Origin: a virus
Lineage: Duplodnaviria; Caudoviricetes
Strand: one strand, 5' to 3'
Length of the DNA: 64,000 nucleotides
Virus record (IMG/VR): IMGVR_UViG_3300021511_000006
Coordinates: 18,562 to 82,561 of that record
Shown: one piece after another, positions 28,864-44,903 of the stretch
How positions within the stretch are numbered: the stretch's first letter is position 1
Layout: the number at the start of each line of letters is the position of its first letter
The notes under the pieces: model-generated
Told to the model about the DNA's origin: nothing
Databases searched by the model: none
Seen by the model: the letters and a program-made list of their open reading frames with translations, nothing else
Program-made: the position numbers and the translations under genes

Positions 28864-31860
28864 TTAATCAACTCCTATTACTGTTAGATATGAACTAAGT
28901 AATTTAACAGATTCGGGTACTGCATCTAATTCTTTACTATCATCGGTTAGATTTGACTCAATGAATTTACGAATATAACTATTTTTCAAATCAATACAGT
29001 CAGATTTAGTTGTGAGAAACTCATGTAAATTAATTGGAGCATCGTGCCCAATCAAACATGCTGTTTCCATTTCACCACATCTTTGACCACCCTTATTCTT
29101 TCTGCCGCCAAGAGGTTGTAGTGTTCGTCTTGCATATGCTCCAATACCTCTTGCTGCAAGTTTCTCTTCTGCAATATGAACCATTCTAAAGAAATGAATG
29201 AATCCAACAGCGATTCGATTAGCCAAATGAACTTTAGATAACGGATCATATATTTTATATTTAAATTCTGCTCCTGTAAATTTTAGGGCATCTTCAACTT
29301 GCTCCAATCTACATGATTGAAATGGAGGTTGGACGATGGTAAAATTTTGAATAAAGTCTTCCGTTATTGTTTTTGGAAGTTGTTCAAATAGTTGTTTAAA
29401 ATACCATCCATCTTCTGTACAATCAATTATTCGTATAAATTTTAGTAAGTATTTTCTTATGAGTTTCTGTGTTATATTCTCTTTGAGCATTTGTGACATT
29501 GATTGTTTTAGACAATCGACTGCCATAGATAAATGCATTTCGTATAACTGCCCAATATTCATTCTTGATATTATACCGAGAGGGTTAATACAGATATCTA
29601 AATGTCGCCCATCTGGTAGTTGTGGCATTTTATTATGAGGAACAATTCTGGAGATTACTCCTTTATTCCCATGTCTATTTGCCATTTTATCGCCTACTTT
29701 TACACGCCTGAAATGAACTCCATACATTTCAACATAAAGACCATTTATCCTCTCACGTTTTCGTTTATACTTTCCGGCGAATGAGAATTTATCTAGATTA
29801 TGATCTTTAATAGTTTTCATAGCTTGATCTTTAGGCATAACTTTTTTGAGGATTTTTTGTAGATCTTTTTCCTTGTCTTGTTGTTTATCTAGTTGCCCTT
29901 CAATCCAATCTTTATATTCAGGTATTTCTGTATTCCATAAGTTACCGTATAAATTAATTTCAGATATTATATAGTTTTTTCGAGCTTCTAATGGAATACC
30001 CTCAGAGAAAACTGAATAATATTCGTCAGTGTTTAATTTTTTAAGAATAGCATATGGATTGCCTGCTTTAATTGTTTCAAGTTCTTCTGGTAATGGTTTA
30101 TATTCGTCTTCTTTTAAAGAAAGAAGAACTTTATCTGGAGATAATGTGAATGACAAATCTTTATAGTGAACTGATGTTAATATATCATCATTAACCAGTC
30201 TATCTGAAATTACAATACCGTCTTCATAGTTATTTCCATAATATACCATAACGCCTGTAAGCAAGTTTCTTCCAATGTTAATATTCCCGTCTTTACAAAA
30301 ATTACTTTCTGCTAAAATATCTCCGGATTTAAATTTGTCACCCGATTTAACATATATGTTCATAAAGTCCATGTGTTCAACATAGATTTTTCTATGCTGA
30401 ACATCAAACAACTCAACGGTTTCGTCATTATATAGAACAATGATATAGTTACTGTCAATATGGACTACTTCTCCATTCTTTTTAGCTGTCTTAACAAATT
30501 GTGTGTATTTTGTATATAGACCTTCACAACCAGAGCTTATTAAAGGAGTATCAAATTCTCTTAACATAATTGATTGTCTCATCTGTGAAGATGCCATTTG
30601 CAATCTTGTTTGATCATCATGTTTAAGAAACGGAGTCATTGAAACAGGAATCGAAATTGGATTATCTTCACAAATATCATCTGTAAATTTTAAGTTTTCA
30701 TCAAGATGTACATTTGGAATCAGATTCTGTAAAACTCCACAGTTGTCTCTATCTGGAGTGTCAACTGGGCATAAACGCCCAAACATAGTTGGACAAATAT
30801 CTCTTAAATGTTTCGGAATATTTTCTCTTTTAAAACCACCTGGTCCAAGTAGACTTATCCTTGATAATTTTGTAAGTTCTTCAATTGGGTTTATTGAGAA
30901 ATCAAACTGAACAATATCTGAAACATTACAGTCTGATAAAATCTGGGTGGAGTTAATATTAAACTTTGGTTGTCTTGATGTTCTATTTGCAAAACATAAA
31001 TCAAATATAATCTTTGATACTTTTCCAATGACAACATATTCAAAACATCTTACCCGTTTATTTATAAATAGTGTATCATCAACAAATCCTGTTTTTAGAA
31101 TTTCAGACAACTCTTCTAAAATAGAATCATACTGCATAAACTTTGCTGTGAGTATATCAACTTTAGAAATTAGATCAATAGCATATAATATATCTTCGCC
31201 TTTTGACTTCGCATTATATCTAGAATACAATTTACCAAGTTCAAGAGTAAAATCATCAGTTGTGTATCCGATTGATTCTTCACAATAAGTTTTTAAATCA
31301 ACTCTTAATAAATCATAAAGATTACTACTGCTTGGGTCAATATCAAGGTCAAGTTCATATATTTTGGTAACTTCTTCAATACCATAGTACGCCAATAATA
31401 TTAAAGAAAATGGAACTTTTTTACCCAAGAAACTGATCTGAATGTGCGGGATTTCTTTATCTTTAAATACCATTATAGTTGCTACATTTGTTCGTAGTTT
31501 TATACTTTCACCCCTTGTAACAATGGGGGTATCAAAAAGCTGAAATAAAGGGATTTTTCTTCTTCCATTAATATAAACATAGTTACCATCAATTAATTTG
31601 GGGATAAATATACTTATATCAATTTCAGAGCTTCCCTTTTGTAATTTAATAACCAATGTTTGTTTAAGAGTCTTGGCGAGCTCTCCTGATGAGAAACGAG
31701 AATCTTTAAGACTAATCTCGTTTATCTGAAATCCAATTTCTTCAACAGGTTTAACTATTTCTTGTACAGTAGATAAAATTTGATCATAATCTAGTTGTCG
31801 TATTGTGAAGATATTTTTATCTTCGTTGTGAATTGTAGATATTGGATTAATTATTTTCAA
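28864..31860 (-). CDS. rpoB: Phage multisubunit RNA polymerase beta subunit (compact, 998 aa)
   Basis: RISLLGPGG, GRLCPVDTPD, MASSQMRQ, GNNYEDGIVIS, VGDKMANRHGNKGVIS, NPLGIISRMNIGQ, GGQRCGEME. Confidence 0.95.
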   Translation of the reverse strand: MKIINPISTIHNEDKNIFTIRQLDYDQILSTVQEIVKPVEEIGFQINEISLKDSRFSSGELAKTLKQTLVIKLQKGSSEIDISIFIPKLIDGNYVYINGRRKIPLFQLFDTPIVTRGESIKLRTNVATIMVFKDKEIPHIQISFLGKKVPFSLILLAYYGIEEVTKIYELDLDIDPSSSNLYDLLRVDLKTYCEESIGYTTDDFTLELGKLYSRYNAKSKGEDILYAIDLISKVDILTAKFMQYDSILEELSEILKTGFVDDTLFINKRVRCFEYVVIGKVSKIIFDLCFANRTSRQPKFNINSTQILSDCNVSDIVQFDFSINPIEELTKLSRISLLGPGGFKRENIPKHLRDICPTMFGRLCPVDTPDRDNCGVLQNLIPNVHLDENLKFTDDICEDNPISIPVSMTPFLKHDDQTRLQMASSQMRQSIMLREFDTPLISSGCEGLYTKYTQFVKTAKKNGEVVHIDSNYIIVLYNDETVELFDVQHRKIYVEHMDFMNIYVKSGDKFKSGDILAESNFCKDGNINIGRNLLTGVMVYYGNNYEDGIVISDRLVNDDILTSVHYKDLSFTLSPDKVLLSLKEDEYKPLPEELETIKAGNPYAILKKLNTDEYYSVFSEGIPLEARKNYIISEINLYGNLWNTEIPEYKDWIEGQLDKQQDKEKDLQKILKKVMPKDQAMKTIKDHNLDKFSFAGKYKRKRERINGLYVEMYGVHFRRVKVGDKMANRHGNKGVISRIVPHNKMPQLPDGRHLDICINPLGIISRMNIGQLYEMHLSMAVDCLKQSMSQMLKENITQKLIRKYLLKFIRIIDCTEDGWYFKQLFEQLPKTITEDFIQNFTIVQPPFQSCRLEQVEDALKFTGAEFKYKIYDPLSKVHLANRIAVGFIHFFRMVHIAEEKLAARGIGAYARRTLQPLGGRKNKGGQRCGEMETACLIGHDAPINLHEFLTTKSDCIDLKNSYIRKFIESNLTDDSKELDAVPESVKLLSSYLTVIGVD

Positions 31861-31862
31861 TG

Positions 31863-32048
31863 TTATATCCCCTTTTCTTTACAGTCTGATTTTAAAGCGT
31901 CCTCTAGTTTATCATCCTCAATATAATAAGGATCGCTATTCATTCTTAGAACATTCATTATAATTTGAGTTAGTCGAAGATCCGGTGCATCATTCCAGAT
32001 CTTCTCAACCAACCCTAATATACGTTTAATTCTAGCTGGATCTCTCAT
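31863..32048 (-). CDS. Small phage protein (DUF1040/YihD-like)
   Basis: MRDPARIKRIL..IW...PDLRLTQII pattern common in phages. Confidence 0.5.
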   Translation of the reverse strand: MRDPARIKRILGLVEKIWNDAPDLRLTQIIMNVLRMNSDPYYIEDDKLEDALKSDCKEKGI

Positions 32049-34750
32049 GTAATTTTCTCTCCCTTAAGTATTTTATCCATAACTCCGGAATATCTTCCTT
32101 CATATAATATTCCTTGAAGAATAGACTTCTTTGGATTTGAAAATGCCATAGCAAGAATCCAACTTTCTCGGTTAGGTACAGATTGTACAGAGTAGAAATT
32201 TGGTATAATTTTTTCTCTATCTTCTATCAGTCTCCATTTTTTGTAATCTTTCCACATCAATTGTGTAACTACACATTCAAAATGTATGTGATGAATATCT
32301 TTATCATATACATCAAATAAAGCATCAACTATTTCGGTATATGTTTTTCCTTTAAATTTATGTAATAATTCAGCAACAGATGCAAGATCTCCAATAATAT
32401 CTCTTTGTTTCATGGAGTTTTCTTTATTTTCTTCTCCCTTAATTACTGCTGAACCTGAAGTATGAAAAGTTCTTAAAACTAATTGTGTTCCCCTCTCTCC
32501 TAATGTTTGAGCAGCAATAATACCAACAAATCGGCTATTTAAACTTTTATATAAATCTCCATAACACTTTTTACAGAGTCTATCAGATTTACATAAAATA
32601 GGACTTCGTATCTGAATTAATTTTCCAATTATATCTTTATAATTATCTTGAGTAATTTTATATAGTGATGATTCATCTTCTGAAAGACACCATCTATTTA
32701 CTAACATATGAGCCTTTCGTTCTGTTTTTACATCGACTTCTAATAAGTCTGTAGTGCCACAATCATCAAGATCTTGATCAATCTGTAAGTTAGCACATGT
32801 AAAAATGAGTTTCCTTGATAGATATCCGCTTGTGCCCGTATTTAATGCAACATCTAAGAGACCTTTTCTACATCCATATGTTGAGAAGAAAAATTCTTTT
32901 TGATTCAAACCTTCAAGTAAAGAATTTTTAATTGGATGATCTAAAATCTCTCCATCAAAGTTTGAAATGAATCCTCTGGATAATACAAGTTGTTTAACTT
33001 GATCCCAACTTCCCCTTGCGCCAGATTCTATCATATATGAATATTTAAATTTATCTCTAAGTTCATGAATCAAACTAGGATCTGAAAATGCAACAATTTG
33101 ATCTCTTGTTTCCTTATGAGAATAAATATTATCTTTTATTTTGGATATCCCTTCAATTTTACAATCTTGTAAAGACATAGTACATCCATATAAAGTTGCA
33201 AATTTGAATCCTATCCTTTTAATATTATCAAGAACCTGTATAGTTATATCGCTAGAATATTTATCTTTAATATCATTAAGGATTGTAAGAAGTTCTTTAT
33301 TAGCAACAAGACCTTCAACTATTGGATAATCTTCTGGAAGTTGTTTGTTAAATTCAGCTTGACCCAATGGAAGGCTTTTATTTTTAAACATAACTGTCTT
33401 ATCTGAAAAGCTGGGTGATGTTAAATAATAAATTCCTAGTATTATATCTTGGCTTGGAGTTGTAGTAAGACCTTCATTTGAAGGGCTATTTAAATTAGAA
33501 GAAATTAAAATTTTCTTTAAAATCTCTTCTTTAGCTTCATTAGTAACCGGAATATAAACTGCCATTTGATCTCCATCAAAATCTGCATTGAATGGAGGGC
33601 ATGCTAAAGGATGTATTTTGATTACTTGATCTAACGTAATCTTAATTTTAAAAGCAAGCATGCTCAATTTATGAAGAGATGGTTGTCTATTTAATATACA
33701 ACATTCTTCACTTGTTATTTCTTCACAAACTTTTAATAGAACAGGTGAATAATTATCAATACATTGATCTACAAAATCAATCGCCTTATTAAGAAGTTTA
33801 AATTTACCAAGTTGAATGATTCTCTTGGCAATCGGAAGTTTAAATAATTCAAGTACCATTAAATATGGTAGTTTACACTCATATAGTGAAAGAGTTGGAT
33901 CTGGAGTAATAACTGCGCGTCCAGAAAAATCAATTCTTTTACCAAGAATATTCCCTCTAATTAATCCTTCTTTTTTTGCCATCTTTTCCAAAATTCTGGT
34001 ATACAACTCACTCACATCTTTTTGTAGTTGTTTGAAATAAGTATAGTAAAGAGCTTTATCTCGATGAATATCAATGATCGTATCTTTCATCGCTTCTTTC
34101 TTGGTGAGTATTTGGACATAGTAACGATTGATTTTGTCCATTAGTTGTTTTGCTTCTCCAGAACTTTTTGATGTTGGTCTAAGATCAGGTGGGAGAACAA
34201 TAATTTCGTCTATGAGCAGACTATTAATATTATTTAAAATAATTTGCCATTCAGCAATTCCTTCTTCAATCATTTCTGTTGCAATGTTTTTAACAAGAAC
34301 TTCAATAGCTTCTGCACGTTCCCATGTTTCTACTCCTTCTGGGATTTGTTCGGGTATAGGTGTAACAACAAGTTCATCTCCAGTTTTATAGAGAACGCTT
34401 TGATCATTTTTCATAAGATTATCAATTGCTTTTTTCAAAGTCTTCCCACCCAGATCTATCAGTAGATCATAAAATATTGGATTTACAACTGGTATTGGTA
34501 TTTTGATTTTTGCAAATCTTTTTCTTCGAGCATCACTATTTATAATATCAACTCCACAGTCATCACATTTGCCTCCAGATCTTGATACTCCATGATATGT
34601 ACCACATTGACAAGTATAATTCCTCATTGGACCAAATATTTGTTCAGAAAATAATCCAAATGGGTGAAACTTTTTCTTTCCAAATGTTTTTAGAGACGTC
34701 ACTTCGTCTAAGGGTTCACAAAATGTTTCATAATCTAATAACTTAGGCAT
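32045..34750 (-). CDS. rpoC: Phage multisubunit RNA polymerase beta' subunit (compact, 901 aa)
   Basis: Zn finger CQC..CDDC, GKRIDFSGRAVI, LNRQPSLH, catalytic NADFDGDQM, TSGYLSRKL, TQLVLRTFH. Confidence 0.95.
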   Translation of the reverse strand: MPKLLDYETFCEPLDEVTSLKTFGKKKFHPFGLFSEQIFGPMRNYTCQCGTYHGVSRSGGKCDDCGVDIINSDARRKRFAKIKIPIPVVNPIFYDLLIDLGGKTLKKAIDNLMKNDQSVLYKTGDELVVTPIPEQIPEGVETWERAEAIEVLVKNIATEMIEEGIAEWQIILNNINSLLIDEIIVLPPDLRPTSKSSGEAKQLMDKINRYYVQILTKKEAMKDTIIDIHRDKALYYTYFKQLQKDVSELYTRILEKMAKKEGLIRGNILGKRIDFSGRAVITPDPTLSLYECKLPYLMVLELFKLPIAKRIIQLGKFKLLNKAIDFVDQCIDNYSPVLLKVCEEITSEECCILNRQPSLHKLSMLAFKIKITLDQVIKIHPLACPPFNADFDGDQMAVYIPVTNEAKEEILKKILISSNLNSPSNEGLTTTPSQDIILGIYYLTSPSFSDKTVMFKNKSLPLGQAEFNKQLPEDYPIVEGLVANKELLTILNDIKDKYSSDITIQVLDNIKRIGFKFATLYGCTMSLQDCKIEGISKIKDNIYSHKETRDQIVAFSDPSLIHELRDKFKYSYMIESGARGSWDQVKQLVLSRGFISNFDGEILDHPIKNSLLEGLNQKEFFFSTYGCRKGLLDVALNTGTSGYLSRKLIFTCANLQIDQDLDDCGTTDLLEVDVKTERKAHMLVNRWCLSEDESSLYKITQDNYKDIIGKLIQIRSPILCKSDRLCKKCYGDLYKSLNSRFVGIIAAQTLGERGTQLVLRTFHTSGSAVIKGEENKENSMKQRDIIGDLASVAELLHKFKGKTYTEIVDALFDVYDKDIHHIHFECVVTQLMWKDYKKWRLIEDREKIIPNFYSVQSVPNRESWILAMAFSNPKKSILQGILYEGRYSGVMDKILKGEKIT

Positions 34751-34753
34751 TTA

Positions 34754-35005
34754 TTAATCCCCCGCTTTGAATTTGTCGCTTATAAATTGTCCTATCTCAC
34801 AGAAATGTTGACTTACTTTATTTGCAATCAATTGATCTATATCAGGCATTACTTCATGCGCAATTATTTTTATATCATCTACTGCCAACTGTATCTGTGA
34901 GTTTTTGATAGCCTTATCGACTATGCGAACAATCTCTTGTTCTAACAATGATGGTGGTTCTGTTAAATTAAACTTTTTTGTCTTGGCCATCTGACTCTCT
35001 TTCAT
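34754..35005 (-). CDS. Hypothetical protein
   Basis: 83-aa ORF between rpoC and the E2-like gene. Confidence 0.5.
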   Translation of the reverse strand: MKESQMAKTKKFNLTEPPSLLEQEIVRIVDKAIKNSQIQLAVDDIKIIAHEVMPDIDQLIANKVSQHFCEIGQFISDKFKAGD

Positions 35006-35186
35006 TTATTTTTTGTTTTAAATTACCAATGCCTTTATCAACTAAGTCTTCTGCTGTTTGTGCAGTTCTATTAACCATCAAATTAAAAAATGATCTAACA
35101 GCTTTTTTACCATTACTTACAAGATCATCAATAATTGTTTCGACCTGATTTGACATTTCTTTATCACTCAATCGTTTTTCTTCCAT
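34968..35186 (-). CDS. Hypothetical protein
   Basis: 72-aa ORF overlapping both neighbours. Confidence 0.5.
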   Translation of the reverse strand: MEEKRLSDKEMSNQVETIIDDLVSNGKKAVRSFFNLMVNRTAQTAEDLVDKGIGNLKQKINERESDGQDKKV

Positions 35187-35530
35187 GTCCCTAGTACCCC
35201 TTGTTTTTTATATTTTATTTCGCCCCAAGGTGTAAAGTAACAGTTGTCTAAGTTAAAGCAAGATAACATACTAATTATCATTGAGTTTGAGTTTTTTGTT
35301 AGTTCATGCTGTCTCAAACTATTTGGAATACAAAACTCTCCAGTCCTTGGAATTGCATTTGGATGTGGATTGTTTAAAATTACCATGTCGATTTTACCAT
35401 CAACAGTTTTAACTATATAATTTTTAATCTCGAATTTTTTTGCTAATTTCGTAATTTGGTATAATTCATTTTTATAAATTAATTTTCTTGGCATAATAAA
35501 TTCTCTTACTTCAACATTTAGTATTTCCAT
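35168..35530 (-). CDS. Ubiquitin-conjugating enzyme (E2/UBC)-like protein
   Basis: HPNAIPRTGEFCI matches the UBC HPN...C active-site motif, followed by MLSCFNLD (cf. LL..PN.D). Coupled to an E1-like gene. Confidence 0.6.
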   Translation of the reverse strand: MEILNVEVREFIMPRKLIYKNELYQITKLAKKFEIKNYIVKTVDGKIDMVILNNPHPNAIPRTGEFCIPNSLRQHELTKNSNSMIISMLSCFNLDNCYFTPWGEIKYKKQGVLGTWKKND

Positions 35531-36390
35531 TATGCAGCTCCTGTTTCAGGAATTAATTCAATATAAGTATTATTACCTTCATCAAAAACTGATACTACAA
35601 AATTATTAAAATCTTCTTGACAACTTACAATAGATGTCAATACTGAAATTAAGTCTTTGCTATTCTTTAAAGCATTCACAGGAATTACTTTTTCAGAAAT
35701 TGGATAAACTTTACTTCCAAGAAATAAAGTTAATTCTTTGTTTTTATTTATATCTAAAATTGGGACGATCTTATCCGGCAGATTTACAAATTTATCTTCG
35801 CCGATTACATTATCATAAATAACATCATAACAATTATTCTCAAAATATTTAACATAATCAAGTTCATATTTTTCGACAGTTTGAATTTCTATAAGAGCTG
35901 CAATTGAAACGTTATCAATCATCATTGAAATAATTGATGCTGCATGTCTTAAATCATTCTTTGTCAATTCCGTAATGTATTTTCCAGCTTGTTGTTTTTT
36001 ATAAGTAACATTCTTTCTAAAATCAGCCATCAAGTATCTTGATGATATATAAAATCTTGCGTCAATTTCAGACTTTCGATCATATGTAAAATCTCGACAA
36101 TCAATTACCAAATCTTCTTTTGGAAGTTTCGTAACACCTTCAATATATTCAGTTTGAAACGCCCAGATTTCTATATTTGGATTTTGATCCATTAAAATAT
36201 CTTTTAAAGCTTCAACTTTTGGAATACCTACATCAATCTGTCTGTAGATAGAATTTTTTAAATTCTTCTTCTTAACTATATCGTGGTCTATTATGACTAG
36301 CTTTTCGGTGTTCTCTAAATTAGAGATTGCTTCTGCTGTGAACCCTCCAAGGGTTCCTAATCCAATAATTACAACGTTTTTAAATACCAC
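35530..36390 (-). CDS. ThiF/E1-like adenylation-fold protein (divergent)
   Basis: VIIGLGTLGG, IDHDIVKKKNLKNSIY, VGIPKVEAL, VIDCRD. GTG start with AAAGGAG SD. Confidence 0.8.
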   Translation of the reverse strand: MVFKNVVIIGLGTLGGFTAEAISNLENTEKLVIIDHDIVKKKNLKNSIYRQIDVGIPKVEALKDILMDQNPNIEIWAFQTEYIEGVTKLPKEDLVIDCRDFTYDRKSEIDARFYISSRYLMADFRKNVTYKKQQAGKYITELTKNDLRHAASIISMMIDNVSIAALIEIQTVEKYELDYVKYFENNCYDVIYDNVIGEDKFVNLPDKIVPILDINKNKELTLFLGSKVYPISEKVIPVNALKNSKDLISVLTSIVSCQEDFNNFVVSVFDEGNNTYIELIPETGAA

Positions 36391-36423
36391 GTTTTATAGT
36401 CTCCTTTTCAATCATTATTTTTT

Positions 36424-36447
36424 GGGGGGAGTTAAAAGCATCCCCCC
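36424..36447. other. Intercistronic G/C hairpin
   Basis: GGGGGGA-N10-TCCCCCC with no U-tract on the sense (minus) strand. Confidence 0.5.
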
Positions 36448-36454
36448 ATAAGAA

Positions 36455-37042
36455 TTAAGCCAATCTTGAGTCTAACTCCTCACTATGATTTTCAATTGGT
36501 TCTGTAAATATAATTGCTCTTCTTATTAGTTCTTGTTCGTCATCTCCAACTGGGGTAGGTCTATAATGAGATTTATATTTATATAGCGAGTTGGCTAATT
36601 TGACAGGATAACTCACAGGAATCTCATATGAATATTTTTTATATCCTCTGGTTGTTCTGACAGTTATAGGCATGCTCGGATCTATTCGTTTGAGTTCTTC
36701 TGCAATTTCATTCCTGAAATGGAGCTCATCGTCATTTGATTTTATCTTTACACCACGTTTTACGAGCTCGTCATCACGACCAGAACCATTTATTTTCCAG
36801 TTGTTCTCTTTTCTGACTAGAGCTTTAATAGCACGACCAAATGCTTTGTTCTTTCCCTCAGATTTAGAAAATGTATCTAAGAGAGAACATATAGATACTC
36901 CTCGTGCTTCAATTCGCTGTTTTGAGGAGTTTATAAAAACACAAGTTGTAAATGCATTATTTACAACTGGACTGTTGACAAAGTAAAATGAAATTTTATC
37001 AACGTCATTGTCTTGTAAGATTTTTTGTATGTCTTCATTCAT
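36455..37042 (-). CDS. Hypothetical protein within the Ubl locus
   Basis: ARGVSICSLLDTFSKSEGKNKAFGRA, resembling a common phage motif of unknown function. Confidence 0.6.
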   Translation of the reverse strand: MNEDIQKILQDNDVDKISFYFVNSPVVNNAFTTCVFINSSKQRIEARGVSICSLLDTFSKSEGKNKAFGRAIKALVRKENNWKINGSGRDDELVKRGVKIKSNDDELHFRNEIAEELKRIDPSMPITVRTTRGYKKYSYEIPVSYPVKLANSLYKYKSHYRPTPVGDDEQELIRRAIIFTEPIENHSEELDSRLA

Positions 37043-37063
37043 GGTTTCATTCCTTTATCTGGT

Positions 37064-37083
37064 GGGGGGTCCGAAGACCCCCC
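37064..37083 (-). other. Stable C(UUCG)G tetraloop hairpin just 3' of the Ubl gene
   Basis: Minus strand reads GGGGGGTC-TTCG-GACCCCCC, with no U-tract. Confidence 0.65.
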
Positions 37084-37093
37084 AACAGTTAAG

Positions 37094-37561
37094 TTAGCAA
37101 CCCTTCTTGCCTGCTGGTTTCAGGAATTCCAGATTGTCACCGTTTTTCAGTACGTAATCAGCATCGACTGCTTTACCATTTACCAGACCGGTAGACAGAC
37201 GATCAACGTTCAGTACTTCTCTCAGGAAGTCCCCAACATCTTTTACTGTCTTCCCTGCGACTGGGAAATTACCCGAAGATGCACCACATGATACATGAAT
37301 GGTAGTAGTAGCTCTGCTACCGAAAGGTGCTCCTGGTTTGGTCAGCGTACTTTGCCCGGAAAATTCCAGTCCGGTCAGTTTACCACCTGCAGTTTTAGCA
37401 ATGGTTGCTCCTTTTTTACCGTACTGAGCCATAATGGCGTTAACAACATCGTCCTTCGGTTTCTTGGTAACACCGACGATACCCAGTTCATCAACACACA
37501 TTCTTTTCAGATCTTTTGAAGTTTTTGCCTCTAAGAAATCTCGATTAAAACTTTTACCCAT
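37094..37561 (-). CDS. Ubiquitin-like (beta-grasp) protein with N-terminal Rho-N/HeH-like domain
   Basis: C-terminal TIHVSCGASSGNFPVAGKTV..LVNGKAVDADYVLKNGDNLEFLKPAGKKGC. N-terminal KTSKDLKRMCVDELGI..KKPKDDVVNAI. Confidence 0.8.
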   Translation of the reverse strand: MGKSFNRDFLEAKTSKDLKRMCVDELGIVGVTKKPKDDVVNAIMAQYGKKGATIAKTAGGKLTGLEFSGQSTLTKPGAPFGSRATTTIHVSCGASSGNFPVAGKTVKDVGDFLREVLNVDRLSTGLVNGKAVDADYVLKNGDNLEFLKPAGKKGC

Positions 37562-37576
37562 GATAATAAGTCTCCT

Positions 37577-38260
37577 TCATTTCACTATTCGGATTTTTGC
37601 GTCTGTAGTCATACTAAGCATATCAAAGTAGATTTCAGACCGTTCATACTGTTCTTTTATAACCACGTTATAAAAAGCCCAGCACATCAATGTTGCTACC
37701 CCCAAATTTGTAAAATACAACTGAGGGTCTGATTGTGAAAGTTCTTCACAACTCATTTCTTCGGGTAACTTATCGTTAGGGTTTGCAATTTCCGGATGGT
37801 AAGCACATAAGTCCGGAGTTAAATCTTTTCCTTCCTTCCGGACATAAATCTGTACATTACCATCTGTAAATTCGTTCCCACCAGAGATTAAAATAACATC
37901 TTGTAAAGTTTTACAGTAATTAGAAACGATCATTCTGGTTTTGTGATTATCAACACATAGAAATACAATATCGCCTTCTCTTATAGTTTCCACAATATTT
38001 TTTTCGTTTACGAAGGCTTCATAAGAATCAAACCGTAGCTCACTAAATTTTATCTGAAGTTCAGTGCCTTTAATATCGGCTTTATTCCCCATGCGGGTAA
38101 ACTCTTGCCTCTCATAGTTTTTATGCTCATATTCATCTCCATCTACTAATAGAATATCTGCGGCTAAATCCTTTGAATAATTCAGAAATCTGCATATTCT
38201 TTCAGAGAGAATAGAACCTACTCCCCCAAGTCCAATAATAGTTATAGGTAATCTAGTCAC
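37577..38260 (-). CDS. E1/ThiF-family activating enzyme
   Basis: IIGLGGVGS, LVDGDEYEHKNYERQ, FLCVDNHKTR, ISGGN, putative catalytic MSCEE. Confidence 0.9.
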   Translation of the reverse strand: MTRLPITIIGLGGVGSILSERICRFLNYSKDLAADILLVDGDEYEHKNYERQEFTRMGNKADIKGTELQIKFSELRFDSYEAFVNEKNIVETIREGDIVFLCVDNHKTRMIVSNYCKTLQDVILISGGNEFTDGNVQIYVRKEGKDLTPDLCAYHPEIANPNDKLPEEMSCEELSQSDPQLYFTNLGVATLMCWAFYNVVIKEQYERSEIYFDMLSMTTDAKIRIVK

Positions 38261-39809
38261 TACTTCTCTCCCTTGAAAATACTCGTCTAAACATGTTTTT
38301 TAATGACGCGTTAGGTTTCTCAGGAATTGGAGTGTAACTGGATCCTGGTTCTTTTATTTTTTCAATAGTTTCTTCCTTGGCTGCTAAGTCTAGTGCAGCA
38401 ATATTAGCTTCTTCTTTTTCGGAATCTAGAAATGTTCCTGCATCTTTTTCAAGTTGTTCTTCTAATAATTCTTTTGAAGAAACTTCTGGTATAAATTCGC
38501 TATAGCAAAAAGGGCATATTGCGTCTTCTTGAACTGCACGAAAGCTGCTATTACATGATGGACATACTACGTATTCAGATTTAGGTTGATCTTTTTCAAA
38601 TAAGTGATCAAATTCATCAGATGGAGCATAACTGTTAAGTAGAGTATCATCATCCACAAGAATTAGGTGTTCATCAGTTAAACAATTAGAACATATGGTT
38701 GTACCTTCAAGACCTTCTTCTTTAACCAATTCACCACATTGATTACATTGGTATATATCCTCTGTGAAGTCTTCCTTCTCTATCTCATTTGTTAGTTTAC
38801 ACTCTCTATGAACACATGTTGCGCAAGGAACAAAGTCACCCTCTGGCGTATGTGGAGGAAATTTAAGAGGTGATTTATTACCAGGCCCAACATTTAATGG
38901 AGATACTCGTGTACCAGTTACATGACGTACGATACCTGTTCGTTTCCAGGCATCTGAGTTATAATGTTGTCCCCAACCAGCATATCCTCGGGAACCATAA
39001 CCATAACCATATTGATGTCCCCAACTCTTATATGTGTAAACTCCTTTGCTTACCATCTTCATCCATTTTTTGTTAAAGACTCGATCACTTGGAGATACAT
39101 TCACATCATAGCGCCTATCAAACTTTCGATAGCTATAAAATTTTGGTGTTGCTGTTGCGTCTTCAACTAGTTTGCCATCTTGTACTTTATAGATTGTTCT
39201 TACAGCTTTATTATCGACTTCATTTGTTTCTGCCATAAGAATTAATTTGTCAATATATTCATCTGGATCAACCATAACTCTATGGCCATTTGCTACAATT
39301 GATGAAGAGATGCTTGGATACTCTTCATCAAGATCGCCCAATGTAATATGAAGACCGTCAAAGTGCTCTTCATCATCATCATCAACACCAGAATGAAATG
39401 CTGACATATTCCCATGACTATGAATAGTACCGATCATTGTCATTCCTTCAATAGTAATTCCTTTATCGTAGTCACAGGATGCACCTGCAACTTTTTGTAC
39501 CGGCGGAATGATTTTATATTTTCCTGTTTCTTCATTATAAAACAGGAGCACAATAGATTCTGATCTATATTCTTCATATACTGCTTTAAAAAATCCCATG
39601 ACTTTAGCAATCCATTTACCAGGAATTTTAGTAATATGCATTTTAGCCATAGTAGTAACACTATTTAGAATAGAGATATTTTTAACGGGCGCAAGACTTT
39701 CCATGACCCCAAGTTTTTTCTTTAGATACACACCTTCTTTTGCAATAATATAAAATACATCATCCTTAGGCATTTCATTTTGACCATCATTTAGGATTAC
39801 TTTGAACAT
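38253..39809 (-). CDS. JAB/MPN metallopeptidase with C-terminal GY-rich and Zn-ribbon extension
   Basis: SESIVLL, GTIHSHGNMSAFHSGVDDDDE (HxH...S..D), DGLHITLG, several CxxC motifs. Confidence 0.9.
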   Translation of the reverse strand: MFKVILNDGQNEMPKDDVFYIIAKEGVYLKKKLGVMESLAPVKNISILNSVTTMAKMHITKIPGKWIAKVMGFFKAVYEEYRSESIVLLFYNEETGKYKIIPPVQKVAGASCDYDKGITIEGMTMIGTIHSHGNMSAFHSGVDDDDEEHFDGLHITLGDLDEEYPSISSSIVANGHRVMVDPDEYIDKLILMAETNEVDNKAVRTIYKVQDGKLVEDATATPKFYSYRKFDRRYDVNVSPSDRVFNKKWMKMVSKGVYTYKSWGHQYGYGYGSRGYAGWGQHYNSDAWKRTGIVRHVTGTRVSPLNVGPGNKSPLKFPPHTPEGDFVPCATCVHRECKLTNEIEKEDFTEDIYQCNQCGELVKEEGLEGTTICSNCLTDEHLILVDDDTLLNSYAPSDEFDHLFEKDQPKSEYVVCPSCNSSFRAVQEDAICPFCYSEFIPEVSSKELLEEQLEKDAGTFLDSEKEEANIAALDLAAKEETIEKIKEPGSSYTPIPEKPNASLKNMFRRVFSRERSSD

Positions 39810-42372
39810 TTACTATACTCCTCTCTTCGTTTATAAGTCTTAATTCAGATGCTTCACATGTAAAGAAGTGACCATGTAAATTTGGCCACGCTCTAACTAT
39901 ACCCGCTTCATTTTGAATTTTTGGTCCAATTCTTGGATTCGGAATACAATCTAATATAGAATTAGCTGTAATATATCTATCTAAACTATAATAATCAGCA
40001 TATGATGTAAAGTATGCAAAATCTAATACTTTAAGACCACCTACTCCATTAGTAAAGACAAACCATCCCTTTCGATTACTATACTCATTAATACCTTGAA
40101 TAATATCACCAGGTTGATACTTAATTTTTGATACATCAATTGAAGCATGCTTTAATGATGGCCATCTTTTTGACTTAATTGTAGTTTTTTGGAATTTTGT
40201 TAATACGTCGCTGTACCATAAAGTACAACAATTTGAGCACAGAACAAGGGGTTCTGGTCCTCCCGTATCAGTTATAAATCCAATAATAATATTTATATCT
40301 TTCTTTGGGAATTGTGAAATGCTGGCTTCTTTAGCTTTGATCTTTGTTCCTGCAATCAATTTACCAAATTTATTTGTAATCTTTCTTATTCTACCAACAT
40401 AAATGATTCCATTTGCTCCATCAACATATCTTTCTTGATGTAGAGTCCCTTCTTTATCAGCTAATATGAAAAATATATCACCAATAGCTGAGTCGAATTT
40501 AAACCCTTGAATTACTTTGACTGACAACATATTAACTGGATTATGCCAATCTGAAACAACTACTTTATCTCCTATAGTAAATTCAATATCCATATCAAAA
40601 CTCTGGATACGAAATTTATCTTCCCCCAACATATATTTTTTTATTTCTGGAGGAATTGGTTTAATAAGTCTAGTTCTGTTTCCTTCAAATATAACGCCAG
40701 CAGGAGAACCAAACACACTATTATTTAATAATTTTGTCTCATTTATATCTTTTATAGCTAGCATTTTTCGACCCACTCTAAATACTGGTGGTAGAGGTTT
40801 AAGTTTATCAATTTCATATAGACTTTTAGCTCGTTTTGCTGCTGATGAGTTTAAGGTAAGATTATATGATCTTATACTTTGATTAACATGTTTCATTTCA
40901 ATATGTAATTGATTTCTACTGGTAGAAATTTGATTAAATTTAACAACGACACCATTTTGAAACGGAACGTTTGCAATAGTTGGTACATAGACATATCGTT
41001 TGTTCTTTTTCAACATAATATTTTCATATTTTGGTTTTGACGTATCAAATATCTCTCCCTCAGTATTTTCCAAAATATAAAATCCATCTCCGAATCTACC
41101 TTCATGAAATCCATCTGCAGATTTACGAACAAAGGAAACCCTTTTATATGTAATGCCCCCGATGGCATTTTTCATAATTAGAATATCACCTTCTTTAATC
41201 TTTACTCCATTTTTCAGAATTCCCGTTTCTTCAAATCTGAGTTTCTTTGTTTCTTTAAGGAGATATTTTGTAAACATTTTGGTTTTCTTAAATATAATAA
41301 GTCTTCCATCATCTCGTTCAACTCTTATATATTTTACATCTCCACTATCCATGAAGCTAATAAGTGAATTAATATAACAAAGAGATTTACCATTTTTAAT
41401 ATAAAAAGGATCTCCAACATGAACATAAAAAGTTTCATTTAAATATACGCCCGATGCAACATCATAAAATAAACTAAATTTCTTTCTAGATCTTGGAGTA
41501 GGTTTTTCATCCTTGCCTGTACTTAAAGGTTGACTAAACATACTAGCAAGGCTGTGATATTGAACATCATTTTGTTTTGATATGCTATAAGTTCGTTTTA
41601 CTTCTTCTATTGCTTGTCCTATATTCATAGGAATTTTAACCCAATCAACATTATAAATAAACATTGGATTTAATTGTGACAATGCTTGCCACTCCATATA
41701 AGAATTAACCCCAGCAATTTTTGAATATGAGTTATAGTTATACATAAAGTCAGTATTAAATTCAGATCCCCAAAAGACATTGATTGCTTTTTCTACTGTT
41801 GAATTTAATGATTGTGTCCGACCATCTGCTCTATCTCCAAAACAAATATACTGATTATCAGCTATATTTAGTAATGGTATTTTAAGCAAGTAATCAGCTA
41901 ACCCCGAGAGTCTTGCAATCCTAAGATATGCTTGCCCACCAGATATATCATAATAATCTGATATATATAGAAGAAATATAACATACGGAAATGCCAATGT
42001 AAATTGCCTTGGACCTCCCTTCTCAGCGAAGTTTTTCTTATATTTGTATTCTTCTAATTTTCCTTCTGCTTTTAATTTATCAACTTCAGCATGAAAATGC
42101 ATATTAATGCTGACAGTTCTAAATGCCGGAGGTTCTTCAACAACAATAATATGACCTTTGTTTACTTTTTCCATATATCTACAATTTGGTGGAATAACTA
42201 CTGGTGTTTCGCTACCAAATTCCAGACTTATACGTCTTAGATAGTCAGGTGTTAATAACACTTTTTTATTAATTTTTGGGGTTGATTCCCCCTTCATTGA
42301 TTTATCATATTCAGAAGAATAAAGATGTGTATATTTCTGATTAATTCGTATTTCATTTTGTAAATCGAGCAT
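39787..42372 (-). CDS. Prokaryotic E2 (family D / PRTRC protein B-like) domain fused to a long beta-rich C-terminal region
   Basis: FTLAFPYVIF..YLLKIPLLNIADNQYICFG..FWGSEFN. The stop overlaps the JAB gene. Confidence 0.65.
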   Translation of the reverse strand: MLDLQNEIRINQKYTHLYSSEYDKSMKGESTPKINKKVLLTPDYLRRISLEFGSETPVVIPPNCRYMEKVNKGHIIVVEEPPAFRTVSINMHFHAEVDKLKAEGKLEEYKYKKNFAEKGGPRQFTLAFPYVIFLLYISDYYDISGGQAYLRIARLSGLADYLLKIPLLNIADNQYICFGDRADGRTQSLNSTVEKAINVFWGSEFNTDFMYNYNSYSKIAGVNSYMEWQALSQLNPMFIYNVDWVKIPMNIGQAIEEVKRTYSISKQNDVQYHSLASMFSQPLSTGKDEKPTPRSRKKFSLFYDVASGVYLNETFYVHVGDPFYIKNGKSLCYINSLISFMDSGDVKYIRVERDDGRLIIFKKTKMFTKYLLKETKKLRFEETGILKNGVKIKEGDILIMKNAIGGITYKRVSFVRKSADGFHEGRFGDGFYILENTEGEIFDTSKPKYENIMLKKNKRYVYVPTIANVPFQNGVVVKFNQISTSRNQLHIEMKHVNQSIRSYNLTLNSSAAKRAKSLYEIDKLKPLPPVFRVGRKMLAIKDINETKLLNNSVFGSPAGVIFEGNRTRLIKPIPPEIKKYMLGEDKFRIQSFDMDIEFTIGDKVVVSDWHNPVNMLSVKVIQGFKFDSAIGDIFFILADKEGTLHQERYVDGANGIIYVGRIRKITNKFGKLIAGTKIKAKEASISQFPKKDINIIIGFITDTGGPEPLVLCSNCCTLWYSDVLTKFQKTTIKSKRWPSLKHASIDVSKIKYQPGDIIQGINEYSNRKGWFVFTNGVGGLKVLDFAYFTSYADYYSLDRYITANSILDCIPNPRIGPKIQNEAGIVRAWPNLHGHFFTCEASELRLINEERSIVNVQSNPK

Positions 42373-42750
42373 TTATTCACCCCTTAAAAATTTATACTGT
42401 TTAGCATATCCAGTTAGTATTTGCTCTGGTCTATGATCATTAATTTCCCAAACTCTTTGCCTCTTTATTGATGGACTCTCTGGATTCTTTTGCAGTTCTT
42501 TTTCACTTGTTATAAATAGAACTGCTAGATATACATCTTCACTTTCACGTTCTAATGATAAGAATGAAATTTCTCCTTGAGTCCGACCTGGTACTTCCAG
42601 TGTAATAAATATATTTGGTCCTTTTGGAAGTATTGTTATATGCTCAATGTTGCCCGTTTCTTGCTCAAATATTTGATCGCATAATATTCTGATTTTTTCA
42701 AGTACATCATCACTTTTGATTTCTGCAAGAAGTTTCTTTAAGATACCCAC
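42373..42750 (-). CDS. Hypothetical protein
   Basis: 125-aa ORF abutting the E2-fusion start. Confidence 0.55.
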   Translation of the reverse strand: MGILKKLLAEIKSDDVLEKIRILCDQIFEQETGNIEHITILPKGPNIFITLEVPGRTQGEISFLSLERESEDVYLAVLFITSEKELQKNPESPSIKRQRVWEINDHRPEQILTGYAKQYKFLRGE

Positions 42751-42764
42751 TTATAAGTTCTCCT

Positions 42765-43091
42765 TTACGGTTGTTTCTTTGTATAATATCTTCTCTCTTT
42801 AGTATCCATCCATTCAATCCGATCAAATGGAACTGACCTCCAACCTTTCATATTCAGATCATAAACATGCATAATTTTATTTTTCTGAATAAGTTTCAGG
42901 ATTTTTTCAATGTTTACAGATTTTGGATGGTCTCTTTTTGGAATTTGTTTAAAATCCAAAGTACACTTCATGATACGATTCGAACCATCTTTCTTTGTAA
43001 ATCTTATAATTACTTGCTTCTCATCATATACTTTTTTCCAGAACTGTATGGCACTTACAATTATATTAGTATCTAATTCTTTTTCTGCCAT
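42765..43091 (-). CDS. WYL_2-like SH3-barrel protein
   Basis: IRFTKKDGSNRIMKCTL...VYDLNMKGWRSV. Confidence 0.65.
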   Translation of the reverse strand: MAEKELDTNIIVSAIQFWKKVYDEKQVIIRFTKKDGSNRIMKCTLDFKQIPKRDHPKSVNIEKILKLIQKNKIMHVYDLNMKGWRSVPFDRIEWMDTKERRYYTKKQP

Positions 43092-44141: not shown

Positions 44142-44142
44142 A

Positions 44143-44523
44143 TTAATCTCCAGTTTCAAGTAATATCGTTCCGTCATATTCTTCTATAATATCACGAAAT
44201 CTGTCTATTCGATAACAGTCATTTCTGTCTATTCTAGCATAAGCGATAAACTTACCCCTATCTAATATCTCAGCAGCTTCTTTATAACATATTTTATCCA
44301 TATTATAAAAATCGCTAGGAACTCCTCTTGCTTTTGCAATCCAATCGTTTCTTCCTGCTTCGGTAAAATTGATAAGATTTTTTTTATTCTTGAAGAATCT
44401 AAAAGATTCATCATGATGGAATTCGAATTTCTTTTGTATATCTTTCCTCAATGTTTTGTTGCCTAGTTCAATAATGAACATTGTGGACGAGCTATTTGTT
44501 ATAAAATCAAGATTTATTTTCAT
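44143..44523 (-). CDS. TNSS-motif family protein, copy 2
   Basis: MKINLDFITNSSSTMFII. Confidence 0.8.
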   Translation of the reverse strand: MKINLDFITNSSSTMFIIELGNKTLRKDIQKKFEFHHDESFRFFKNKKNLINFTEAGRNDWIAKARGVPSDFYNMDKICYKEAAEILDRGKFIAYARIDRNDCYRIDRFRDIIEEYDGTILLETGD

Positions 44524-44903
44524 TGATTTTCTACCTTCACTACTAATTTTTTAAGCTCCCTTAAGCTTATTGGAGAAACTGTGGTTGCACCCTCTCCATC
44601 AACATCAATCGCTTTTAAAATTAAATCATCTTTTCTTAAGATATCAAATAAAATTAAAGAGTCCCACCCATACGGACCAAGCATAATTTCTTTTCCATCT
44701 TTAAGAAGTTTTCCCTCTTTAATTATCTCGTTTAATGTACATTCAATTTCTTCATTACTTGGCTTTTCAACTTCTATATAATCTTTATATTCTTGTGAAT
44801 GTCTAATTCTATTTATTTCGATATTATAGTCTTCTGGTATAAAGATTATAAAAGCAGAAGATGAACTATTTGTTATAAAATCCATTTTAATTTTCATAAT
44901 CAT
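44520..44903 (-). CDS. TNSS-motif family protein, copy 3
   Basis: MKIKMDFITNSSSSAFII. Confidence 0.8.
   Translation of the reverse strand: MIMKIKMDFITNSSSSAFIIFIPEDYNIEINRIRHSQEYKDYIEVEKPSNEEIECTLNEIIKEGKLLKDGKEIMLGPYGWDSLILFDILRKDDLILKAIDVDGEGATTVSPISLRELKKLVVKVENQ

What the first reader, a model, noticed from the sequence alone, without database searches (positions are those of the whole stretch)
35168..42372. Phage-encoded complete ubiquitin-like conjugation locus next to the RNA polymerase genes
Seen: one co-oriented run of E2(D)-fusion, JAB peptidase, E1/ThiF, Ubl, an unknown gene, a second E1-like and a second E2-like, then rpoC/rpoB. Catalytic signatures look intact in the core set (JAB HSH..S..D, E1 GxGGxG/NxxRQ/SC, E2 PLLNI..ICFG, Ubl ending KKG-C). 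Established: bacterial Ubl-E1-E2-JAB operons (Bil) conjugate Ubl to phage proteins as antiphage defence, and related Bub/PRTRC-type operons exist. Inference: here the virus owns the machinery. It could tag host defence or transcription proteins, regulate its own RNAP or virion assembly, or reverse host Bil/CBASS conjugation through its JAB.
Basis: partly seen in the sequence, partly recalled or inferred. Interest (0 to 1): 0.92.

Follow-up and report, generated by a model that had tools for sequence, protein, structure and literature searches.

The report
Phage-owned ubiquitin-like tagging operon
An uncultured large phage from hydrothermal vents, like dozens of its relatives, carries intact genes for a ubiquitin-style protein-tagging kit (tag, two activating-type enzymes, two carrier-type enzymes, trimming protease). 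Such kits have so far been studied only as bacterial defences against phages, and what this one tags is unknown.

Summary
On the minus strand, 35168-42372 carries seven tightly packed, intact genes:
- a giant E2 (861 aa, Prok-E2_D-type N-domain)
- a JAB peptidase with zinc ribbons
- a small ThiF-type E1
- a Ubl with an HeH/Rho_N head, ending KKG-C
- a variable 195-aa unknown
- a second E1-like protein
- a 120-aa mini-E2 with invariant HPN-x8-C

The RNA polymerase beta' and beta genes follow. The window is a tailed phage (terminase, baseplate).

The E2-JAB-E1-Ubl quartet recurs in 60 or more IMG/VR contigs, up to 458 kb. There E1 is as conserved as RNAP beta' (median 68% each), so it is a core gene, not sporadic cargo. 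All catalytic residues are invariant. The Ubl Gly is invariant, with 0-2 trailing residues.

A strong hairpin after the Ubl gene is conserved in 46 of 51 relatives. This closes the quartet as a unit and weakens the proposed link to RNAP.

The nearest named relative is the unstudied PRTRC ("6d") cassette, but curated cut-offs are not met. It is not Bil or CBASS.

Relatives also occur:
- in bacterial chromosomes, some next to a proteasome-type AAA+ ATPase
- in a cultured Bacillus jumbo phage with a four-copy poly-Ubl gene

The targets are unknown. This scan had already reported the same operon type on related phage DNA; I agree with those reports.

The parts
39787..42372 (-). Giant E2 (861 aa). 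The N-terminal ~250 aa form a Prok-E2_D-type UBC-like domain with invariant Asn169 and Cys177 (N-x7-C). The C-terminal ~600 aa are conserved but unannotated, with weak internal ~55-aa repeats.
   Evidence: Pfam 20.7-23 bits. 31 of 40 relatives hit Prok-E2_D, best 6.3e-7. Invariant N169 and C177. Internal repeats 308-363 vs 586-649, hhalign E 7.5e-5. 2968 representative clusters at E<=1e-3; nearly all of the best 150 are 810-990 aa.
38253..39809 (-). JAB/JAMM metallopeptidase (518 aa) with a JAB-N-like head and a variable C-terminal tail carrying up to five CxxC pairs (zinc ribbons).
   Evidence: PRTRC_A 3.9e-12 over residues 18-177; Prok-JAB 24.3 bits. E84, H130, H132, S140 and D143 at least 90% conserved in 56 sequences. 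First CxxC present in 79-86%, the others in about half.
37577..38260 (-). E1a: small ThiF/MoeB-type activating enzyme (227 aa).
   Evidence: ThiF 1.1e-16; full-length but sub-threshold match to PRTRC_ThiF. Invariant G10/G12/G13/G15, D40, R51, Q52, K60, D104 and Cys171 in 53 sequences. PDB profile hits to MoeB, UBA5, Uba4 and ThiF.
37094..37561 (-). Ubl (155 aa): HeH/Rho_N-like N-domain, linker, then a beta-grasp ending ..LEFLKPAGKKG-C.
   Evidence: TGS, ThiS and MoaD hits on residues 120-150. Among 45 relatives: 27 Rho_N, 15 TGS, 11 ThiS. Gly154 invariant, followed by 0-2 residues (C, R, F or none). Highest GC (0.44) and GC3 (0.36) of 21 genes tested.
37064..37083 (-). Perfect 8-bp GC hairpin with a UUCG loop, 10 nt after the Ubl stop codon. 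Probable terminator, attenuator or 3' stabiliser.
   Evidence: Sequence. One of only two G5..C5 hairpins in 64 kb, 0.01 expected. The structure, not the sequence, is conserved after the Ubl gene in 46 of 51 relatives: median MFE -23.6 vs -5 to -6 kcal/mol after E1a, E1b or g125.
36455..37042 (-). Unknown 195-aa protein. Optional insert, present in about a third of related loci and bracketed by the two GC hairpins.
   Evidence: No Pfam, PHROG, NCBIfam or PADLOC hit. Found in 16 relatives; absent for example from L005 and L006.
36424..36447 (-). Second GC hairpin (G6A ... TC6), just after the stop codon of the 195-aa gene.
35530..36390 (-). E1b: second E1-like protein (286 aa). Cap2-like Rossmann domain 1-176, disordered linker, C-terminal alpha-beta-beta-alpha-beta-beta domain, and a near-invariant T-G-[A/G/S]-A carboxy-terminus.
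   Evidence: ThiF 4.4e-15 (N-half); PADLOC Cap2 'E1-E2' models to 4e-11. AF2 pLDDT 88. Best solved match is the Cap2 E1 domain, Z 19.4, 177 residues. Invariant G10, G12, G15, D35, K58 and C98, but the Arg finger R50 is present in only 27 of 45. Tail G284 43/45, A286 44/45.
35168..35530 (-). E2b: minimal UBC-like protein (120 aa) with PHPN-x8-C. Its start overlaps the E1b stop (TAATG).
   Evidence: H56, N58 and C67 invariant in 35 sequences. AF2 pLDDT 89. Foldseek top ~50 hits are almost all UBC E2s, but E is 0.09-1. VIA best Z 4.8; the list is dominated by E2s, including BubB and Cap2. 91 clusters, all unannotated.
42373..43091 (-). Two small conserved genes (125 aa and 108 aa, the latter phrog_1086) always directly upstream of the giant E2 in the RNAP-linked clade. 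Possible accessory parts.
   Evidence: Synteny in ~40 loci. phrog_1086 2e-13. The 125-aa gene abuts the E2 start with no gap.
28864..35186 (-). Context: two small ORFs (72 and 83 aa), unsplit RNAP beta' (901 aa), a 61-aa ORF, and RNAP beta (998 aa).

Best explanation
This is a phage-encoded, vertically inherited ubiquitin-like protein-conjugation system of the PRTRC/'6d' kind, extended by a second E1-like/E2-like pair.

Core cycle (inferred from intact motifs):
1. The JAB peptidase removes the residue(s) after the invariant Gly154 of the abundant HeH-Ubl.
2. E1a adenylates that Gly and takes it onto Cys171.
3. The Ubl passes to Cys177 of the giant E2.
4. The E2's conserved ~600-aa repeat-containing tail selects the target lysine.
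5. JAB can also reverse the mark.

E1b and E2b look like a split, Cap2-like second branch. It would either give the same Ubl a second route through E2b Cys67, or activate E1b's own conserved ..TGAA tail.

The quartet is a transcription unit closed by a conserved hairpin after the Ubl gene.

My best guess for the target, at low confidence, is DNA- or transcription-associated proteins of the infected cell. This rests on the nucleic-acid-binding-type HeH head on the tag and the placement of the operon among replication and transcription genes.
For: Shown here:
- All parts are intact and tightly linked.
- Family assignments.
- Catalytic residues are invariant across 35-56 divergent homologues: E1a GxGGxG, D40, R51, Q52, K60, D104, C171; E2 N169, C177; JAB E, HxH, S, D; E2b H, N, C.
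- The Ubl has an invariant terminal Gly followed by 0-2 variable residues. Type II Bil Ubls have the same precursor logic, trimmed by a JAB (PMC10557695).
- The same gene order occurs in 60 or more IMG/VR contigs. E1a identity tracks RNAP beta' (Spearman 0.86, medians 68% vs 68%).
- The hairpin after the Ubl gene is conserved in structure in 46 of 51 loci. The Ubl gene has the highest GC3 of the genes tested.

Support for a protein-modifier role from relatives:
- Chromosomal relatives form AAA+(PAN/Mpa-like)-Ubl-E2-JAB-E1 operons in 9 loci.
- A cultured Bacillus jumbo phage has four head-to-tail Ubl repeats, each ending ..KAGVKG, next to an E2_D-like protein, a JAB and a ThiF.
Against: - No biochemistry, no expression data, and no target is known.
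- Single-sequence Pfam scores for E2_D and JAB are below the gathering cut-offs.
- The UBC fold of E2b rests on weak structural scores (Z 4.8) plus the motif.
- No structure was predicted for the Ubl.
- E1b lacks a conserved catalytic Cys, and its Arg finger is variable (27 of 45), so it may be a non-catalytic partner.
- The fold of E1b's C-terminal domain is unassigned.
- The target guess is inference only.
Confidence: 0.7

Rival explanations
1. Defence cargo. The cassette is a Bil-like anti-phage system carried by the phage to tag virion proteins of competing phages (superinfection exclusion), not a part of its own infection programme.
For: The only characterised bacterial Ubl-E1-E2-JAB operons (Bil) defend by tagging phage tail proteins (10.1101/2023.09.04.556158; PMC10557695). 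Homologous quartets sit in bacterial chromosomes, one beside a transposase.
Against: The cassette occupies a fixed position in more than 50 divergent phages, and E1a is as conserved as RNAP beta'. Defence cargo is usually sporadic and sits in variable islands. No PADLOC Bil model hits the window proteins.
Confidence: 0.12
2. Virion-assembly role. The abundant Ubl is attached to, or chaperones, the phage's own head or tail proteins, as a covalent decoration or assembly factor. The lambda TAPI/TAPK Ubl-JAB pair is the precedent.
For: Signs of high Ubl expression. Precedent of Ubl plus JAB in lambdoid tail assembly (PMC1779556). The cassette lies on the same strand as the structural genes further along.
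Against: The operon sits among replication, recombination and transcription genes, not in the structural block. Chromosomal relatives have no virion context.
Confidence: 0.15
3. Sulfur-carrier pathway. The Ubl is a ThiS/MoaD-type thiocarboxylate carrier used to thiolate a nucleic acid or cofactor, and JAB only matures it.
For: Weak ThiS and MoaD hits. A small E1 of ThiF/MoeB size. The Gly-Cys end resembles JAMM-processed carriers. A radical SAM gene lies three genes upstream.
Against: - Two E2-like proteins with invariant active-site Cys are unnecessary for sulfur transfer.
- No rhodanese, cysteine desulfurase or sulfurtransferase hit was found among the 10 cassette and adjacent ORFs scanned.
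- The terminus is KG, not GG.
- Chromosomal relatives pair with a proteasome-type AAA+ ATPase.
Confidence: 0.06

Closest known systems
PRTRC cassette (NCBIfam TIGR03735 PRTRC_A, TIGR03736 PRTRC_ThiF). I equate it, by inference, with operon type 6d of Iyer, Burroughs & Aravind 2006 (PMC1779556).
   Same: A JAB with an N-terminal extra domain, a small single-domain ThiF E1 matched over its full length, an E2 of the Prok-E2_D type with Cys but no HPN His, and a small Ubl with a C-terminal Gly.
   Different: Scores are far below the curated cut-offs (46 vs 101.8 bits; 35.5 vs 144.75). No ParB or PRTRC D/E/F partners. The E2 carries a 600-aa extension, the Ubl an HeH head and the JAB zinc ribbons. 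The host element is a phage, not a plasmid or ICE. PRTRC itself has no known function.
BilABCD (Type I/II) anti-phage ubiquitination operons
   Same: The same four activities. The Ubl has a conserved Gly followed by a few residues that the JAB trims.
   Different: No PADLOC Bil hit. BilD is a two-domain pseudo-dimeric E1, whereas E1a is 227 aa. The gene order differs (E2-JAB-E1-Ubl vs Ubl-E2-JAB-E1). Bil is host-encoded defence.
Cap2 (E2-E1 fusion) of Type II CBASS
   Same: Cap2's E1 domain is the best solved match for E1b (Z 19.4, 22% identity; PADLOC 4e-11). A mini-E2 is encoded alongside.
   Different: Separate genes in E1-then-E2 order. No CD-NTase. E2b has a eukaryote-like HPN-x8-C. E1b has an extra C-terminal domain and a conserved ..TG[A/G]A end.
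Bacillus jumbo phage vB_BauM_KLEB27-3 gp194-gp199 (OM634661.1)
   Same: ThiF 29% identical to E1a. A JAB annotated as PRTRC_A-domain. gp196 matches the E2_D N-domain profile (E 5e-6), with N-x7-C aligned. The Ubl ends ..AGVKG.
   Different: The Ubl is a four-copy head-to-tail precursor with a 7-residue cap and no HeH head. No E1b/E2b, no giant E2 tail, not next to RNAP. Ubl similarity is at motif level only.

Membership tests
PRTRC system (NCBIfam) | JAB protein reaches the PRTRC_A curated cut-off (101.8 bits) | tested here: not met
   46.1 bits, E 3.9e-12, residues 18-177. Homologous, but outside the equivalog.
PRTRC system (NCBIfam) | E1 reaches the PRTRC_ThiF cut-off (144.75 bits) | tested here: not met
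   35.5 bits, but aligned over 3-208 of 227 residues.
PRTRC system (NCBIfam) | ParB-like and PRTRC D/E/F partner genes in the cassette | tested here: not met
   No such NCBIfam or Pfam hit on any of the 10 cassette and flanking ORFs scanned.
Prok-E2_D (Pfam PF14460) | Match to the family model with the conserved Cys | tested here: inconclusive
   The window protein scores 20.7-23 bits vs a cut-off of 25. 31 of 40 relatives match at E<0.01 (best 6.3e-7), and no other family matches. C177 and N169 are invariant.
JAMM/JAB metallopeptidase | E ... HxH-x7-S-xx-D motif | tested here: met
   HSHGNMSAFHSGVD. E84, H130, H132, S140 and D143 at least 90% conserved in 56 sequences.
E1/ThiF adenylating enzymes (E1a) | Gly-rich ATP loop, Arg finger, Mg-binding Asp, plus a conserved Cys after the Rossmann core | tested here: met
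   Invariant G10/12/13/15, D40, R51, Q52, K60, D104 and C171 in 53 sequences. ThiF 61 bits.
UBC/E2 superfamily (E2b) | HPN motif followed 7-9 residues later by the catalytic Cys | tested here: met
   H56, N58 and C67 invariant; P57 at least 90% in 35 sequences.
UBC/E2 superfamily (E2b) | UBC fold | tested here: inconclusive
   AF2 pLDDT 89. Foldseek hits are nearly all E2s but E is 0.09-1. VIA best Z 4.8, rmsd 4.4 over 94 residues.
Ubiquitin-like beta-grasp modifiers | Beta-grasp domain with a conserved C-terminal Gly at or near the end | tested here: met
   Sequence level only. TGS 23.5 bits (above cut-off). 15 of 45 relatives hit TGS, 11 ThiS, 1 Ub-Mut7C. G154 invariant with 0-2 trailing residues. 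Fold not modelled.
BilABCD | Match to Bil protein models; two-domain (IAD+AAD) E1 | tested here: not met
   No PADLOC Bil hit for any window protein. E1a is a single 227-aa domain.
Type II CBASS Cap2/Cap3 | E2-E1 fusion next to a CD-NTase | tested here: not met
   E1b and E2b are separate genes. No nucleotidyltransferase hit in the locus. Only the E1 domain resembles Cap2.
ThiS/MoaD sulfur-carrier pathways | Thiocarboxylate formation with a sulfurtransferase partner | not testable with these tools
   No rhodanese or desulfurase hit on the 10 cassette and adjacent ORFs scanned. The chemistry needs an experiment.

The most novel reading that the evidence does not exclude
A whole lineage of large phages depends on its own two-branch ubiquitin-like system as a core infection function. 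An abundant DNA-binding-headed Ubl would be conjugated by a giant substrate-selecting E2 and by a eukaryote-like HPN mini-E2 to host or viral proteins. The same family in bacteria would feed a proteasome-type AAA+ unfoldase. If so, a ubiquitin-to-unfoldase logic exists in bacteria and their viruses, independent of Pup and of defence.
Probability: 0.3. Interest if true: 0.88.

Novelty: new variant of a known kind. Interest (0 to 1): 0.74.

Why it matters
Ubiquitin-like conjugation in bacteria is currently understood as host immunity (CBASS Cap2, Bil, probably Bub). Here the machinery is a conserved core operon of the virus itself, as well conserved as its RNA polymerase. This would reverse the usual picture and parallels the way eukaryotic viruses exploit ubiquitination.

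It also gives a function-free family (PRTRC/6d) a large natural data set: about 3000 representative clusters for the E2 alone. A cultured Bacillus jumbo phage carries a related module with a polyubiquitin-like precursor, so targets and essentiality can be tested directly. Chromosomal relatives joined to a proteasome-type AAA+ ATPase suggest what the tag may be read by.

Tried and rejected
- No DNA match in GenBank phages. tblastn of the Ubl and of E2b against GenBank phages found nothing.
- Profile searches against PDB sequences gave nothing for E2b, the E2_D N-domain or the E1b C-domain, and only a chance-level hit for the Ubl.
- hhalign of the E1b C-domain against the Ubl beta-grasp found no similarity, so I do not claim it is a second Ubl. 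VIA and Foldseek rows cover only residues 1-185 of E1b, so the C-domain fold is untested.
- ESM Atlas for the E2 tail: its own model is poor (pLDDT 0.48) and TM is 0.25 or less, to KOW/TraI-2B repeat proteins. This is a lead only.
- No RNA holder was listed among public runs. All holders are hydrothermal-vent or sediment DNA metagenomes.
- Sigma-70 promoter and intrinsic-terminator scans are at chance level.
- Literature searches for phage-encoded Ubl/E1/E2 systems found no description in the held library. Two Aravind-group papers that might mention them are not held.
- No whole genome is held for the window.
Full report
**What is there**

The window is a low-GC (about 31%) tailed phage. It encodes:
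- a large terminase (phrog_2, 1e-37), a virion protein and a baseplate wedge (2e-31)
- SbcCD, topoisomerase II and a helicase
- unsplit RNAP beta' (901 aa) and beta (998 aa)

It has no DNA match in GenBank phages. Public runs that hold it are hydrothermal-vent metagenomes.

On the minus strand between 42372 and 35168 lie seven intact genes, with overlaps or short gaps:
- an 861-aa protein whose residues 162-234 match Prok-E2_D
- a 518-aa JAB (Prok-JAB; PRTRC_A 3.9e-12)
- a 227-aa ThiF (E1a)
- a 155-aa protein with a Rho_N/HeH head and TGS/ThiS/MoaD-like C-terminus, ending KKGC
- a 195-aa unknown
- a 286-aa ThiF-like protein (E1b)
- a 120-aa protein with PHPNAIPRTGEFC (E2b)

**More than chance**

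A scan of IMG/VR with the giant E2 and then with E1a gave 67 loci, on contigs up to 458 kb.
- In about 50 loci the order is SbcCD, radical SAM, two small genes, E2, JAB, E1a, Ubl, (195-aa gene), E1b, E2b, small ORFs, rpoC, rpoB.
- E1a identity to the window protein (median 68%) equals that of RNAP beta' (68%) and tracks it (Spearman 0.86). This fits vertical inheritance of a core gene.
- Another group of phage contigs has only the E2-JAB-E1a-Ubl quartet, with no E1b, E2b or RNAP within 9 kb.
- A full HMMER search with the E2 N-domain profile found 2968 representative clusters at E<=1e-3 and 381 at 1e-30. Nearly all of the best 150 are 810-990 aa.

**Active sites**

- E1a, 53 sequences: the ATP loop, D40, R51, Q52, K60, D104 and Cys171 are invariant.
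- E2 N-domains, 40 sequences: Asn169 and Cys177 are invariant, with the N-x7-C spacing of UBC enzymes. 31 of 40 hit Prok-E2_D and nothing else.
- JAB: the JAMM residues are at least 90% conserved in 56 sequences.
- Ubl, 45 sequences: Gly154 is invariant and is followed by nothing or by 1-2 variable residues. 27 carry a recognisable Rho_N head; 15 hit TGS and 11 hit ThiS.

Type II Bil Ubls show the same pattern: a conserved Gly plus a few residues, which a JAB trims (PMC10557695).

**The second pair**

E2b has no family hit, but H56, N58 and C67 are invariant in 35 sequences. Its AF2 model (pLDDT 89) retrieves almost only UBC E2s, at weak scores: Foldseek E 0.09-1 and VIA Z up to 4.8, including bacterial BubB and Cap2. 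I call it a probable minimal E2.

E1b (AF2 pLDDT 88) has three parts:
- an E1 Rossmann domain whose best solved match is the Cap2 E1 domain (Z 19.4)
- a disordered linker
- a C-terminal alpha-beta-beta-alpha-beta-beta domain of unassigned fold, ending in a near-invariant T-G-[A/G/S]-A

E1b keeps the ATP loop, D35, K58 and D97. It lacks a conserved catalytic Cys, and its Arg finger is present in only 27 of 45 sequences. It may therefore be:
- an adenylating enzyme that hands substrate directly to E2b
- a partner subunit of E1a
- an enzyme acting on its own tail

**Transcription unit**

Ten nucleotides after the Ubl stop codon lies a perfect GGGGGGTC-UUCG-GACCCCCC hairpin. A second GC hairpin follows the 195-aa gene. 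These are the only two such hairpins in 64 kb.

In 46 of 51 distinct relatives, the 70 nt after the Ubl gene fold to -16 kcal/mol or lower. The median is -23.6, against -5 to -6 after E1a, E1b or the 125-aa gene. The sequences differ and some are followed by U-runs. The Ubl gene also has the highest GC and GC3 of 21 genes tested.

I read this as a terminator, attenuator or stabiliser that makes the tag more abundant than the enzymes and closes the quartet as a unit. Together with quartets that lack RNAP neighbours, this weakens the idea that the system is functionally tied to RNAP.

**Relatives outside this clade**

A scan of GTDB genomes gave 133 hits, of which 80 were kept. GC ranges from 23 to 70%, and most are short MAG contigs that may be mis-binned viruses. 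Two are clearly chromosomal:
- A 957-kb Paceibacterota contig, where the quartet sits between MreC/PBP2 and an H+-pyrophosphatase.
- A 4.78-Mb Planctomycetota contig with the order AAA+ ATPase, Ubl, E2, JAB, E1.

The ATPase matches proteasome ATPases best (pup_AAA 113 bits, CDC48, PAN). The five-gene arrangement recurs in nine loci, with ATPase identity falling to 28%. Their Ubls end ..PAGEKG and ..LSGRKG, the same tail as here.

A cultured Bacillus jumbo phage, vB_BauM_KLEB27-3, has:
- a ThiF 29% identical to E1a
- a JAB annotated as PRTRC_A-domain
- gp196, which matches the E2 N-domain profile (E 5e-6, with N-x7-C aligned)
- gp199, four head-to-tail 57-aa repeats each ending ..KAGVKG plus a 7-residue cap, that is, a polyubiquitin-like precursor

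The resemblance of gp199 to the window Ubl is only at motif level.

**Classification**

The nearest named family is PRTRC, but:
- its curated cut-offs are missed by a wide margin
- its ParB and other partner genes are absent
- PRTRC itself has no known function

It is not Bil (no model hit, different E1 architecture and gene order). It is not CBASS (no CD-NTase, no fusion). I file it as a new, phage-borne variant of the PRTRC/6d kind, with an added Cap2-like E1 and an HPN-type E2.

**Function**

Steps shown: presence, integrity, conservation, synteny, and the hairpin.

Steps inferred: JAB maturation, adenylation, thioester transfer, target choice by the E2 tail, and the role of E1b and E2b.

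A sulfur-carrier role is unlikely because of the two E2s, the lack of sulfurtransferases in the ORFs scanned, and the AAA+ link in relatives. Defence cargo is unlikely because of the core-gene behaviour. Whether the targets are host proteins, phage replication or transcription proteins, or virion parts is open. I lean weakly towards DNA-associated targets because of the HeH head.

**Earlier reports of this scan**

The same six-gene operon beside RNAP, and related quartets, were already followed up on other phage DNA, with the same reading and the same closest family. My results agree.

- the conserved post-Ubl hairpin
- the E1b C-terminal domain and tail
- Cap2 as the nearest solved structure to E1b
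- the AAA+-linked chromosomal relatives
- the poly-Ubl gene of the cultured Bacillus phage

I found no description of phage-encoded systems of this kind in the searchable literature.

Noticed in passing
L130:4763-9696 (4.78-Mb Planctomycetota contig); also L136, L118, L121, L122, L132, L139, L114, L140: Bacterial five-gene operon: AAA+ ATPase (best hits are proteasome ATPases Mpa/PAN/CDC48), Ubl, E2_D-like, JAB, E1. It is homologous to the phage quartet and conserved across nine loci. It may be an undescribed tag-and-unfold pathway.
   Followed up: partly
L155:5931-6638 (Bacillus phage vB_BauM_KLEB27-3 gp199, OM634661.1 172930-173637): Four head-to-tail 57-aa repeats, each ending ..FEVKAGVKG, followed by a 7-residue cap. 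This is a polyubiquitin-like precursor annotated as hypothetical. It sits next to an E2_D-like protein, a JAB and a ThiF in a cultured jumbo phage.
   Followed up: partly
window 43095-44903, and upstream of SbcD in L002, L004, L005 and L006: Several small proteins share only an N-terminal ~20-40-residue leader (3-5 separate tblastn hits per locus) beside a radical SAM gene. This looks like a RiPP-style precursor family with its maturase, in a phage.
   Followed up: no
window 31863-32048: A conserved 61-aa ORF sits between rpoC and rpoB (40-77% identity in relatives). It may be a small RNAP subunit. The beta' and beta genes are unsplit and short (901 and 998 aa) and only 27-29% identical to any GenBank phage RNAP.
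   Followed up: no
window 38253-38820 (JAB C-terminal part, residues ~329-435): Five CxxC pairs form probable zinc ribbons on the JAB. The first pair is present in about 80% of relatives and the others in about half. They may be an E3-like or nucleic-acid-binding add-on.
   Followed up: partly
window 36424-37083: The optional 195-aa gene is bracketed by the only two G5..C5 hairpins in the 64-kb window. This suggests a cassette inserted between the Ubl terminator and E1b.
   Followed up: partly
L074, L076, L111 and other genome-contig loci: Contigs carrying this phage operon are binned in public MAGs named as Thermoplasmatales, Heimdallarchaeota, Woesearchaeota and many CPR bacteria. These are likely mis-binned phage contigs, so the host cannot be read from the names.
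   Followed up: no
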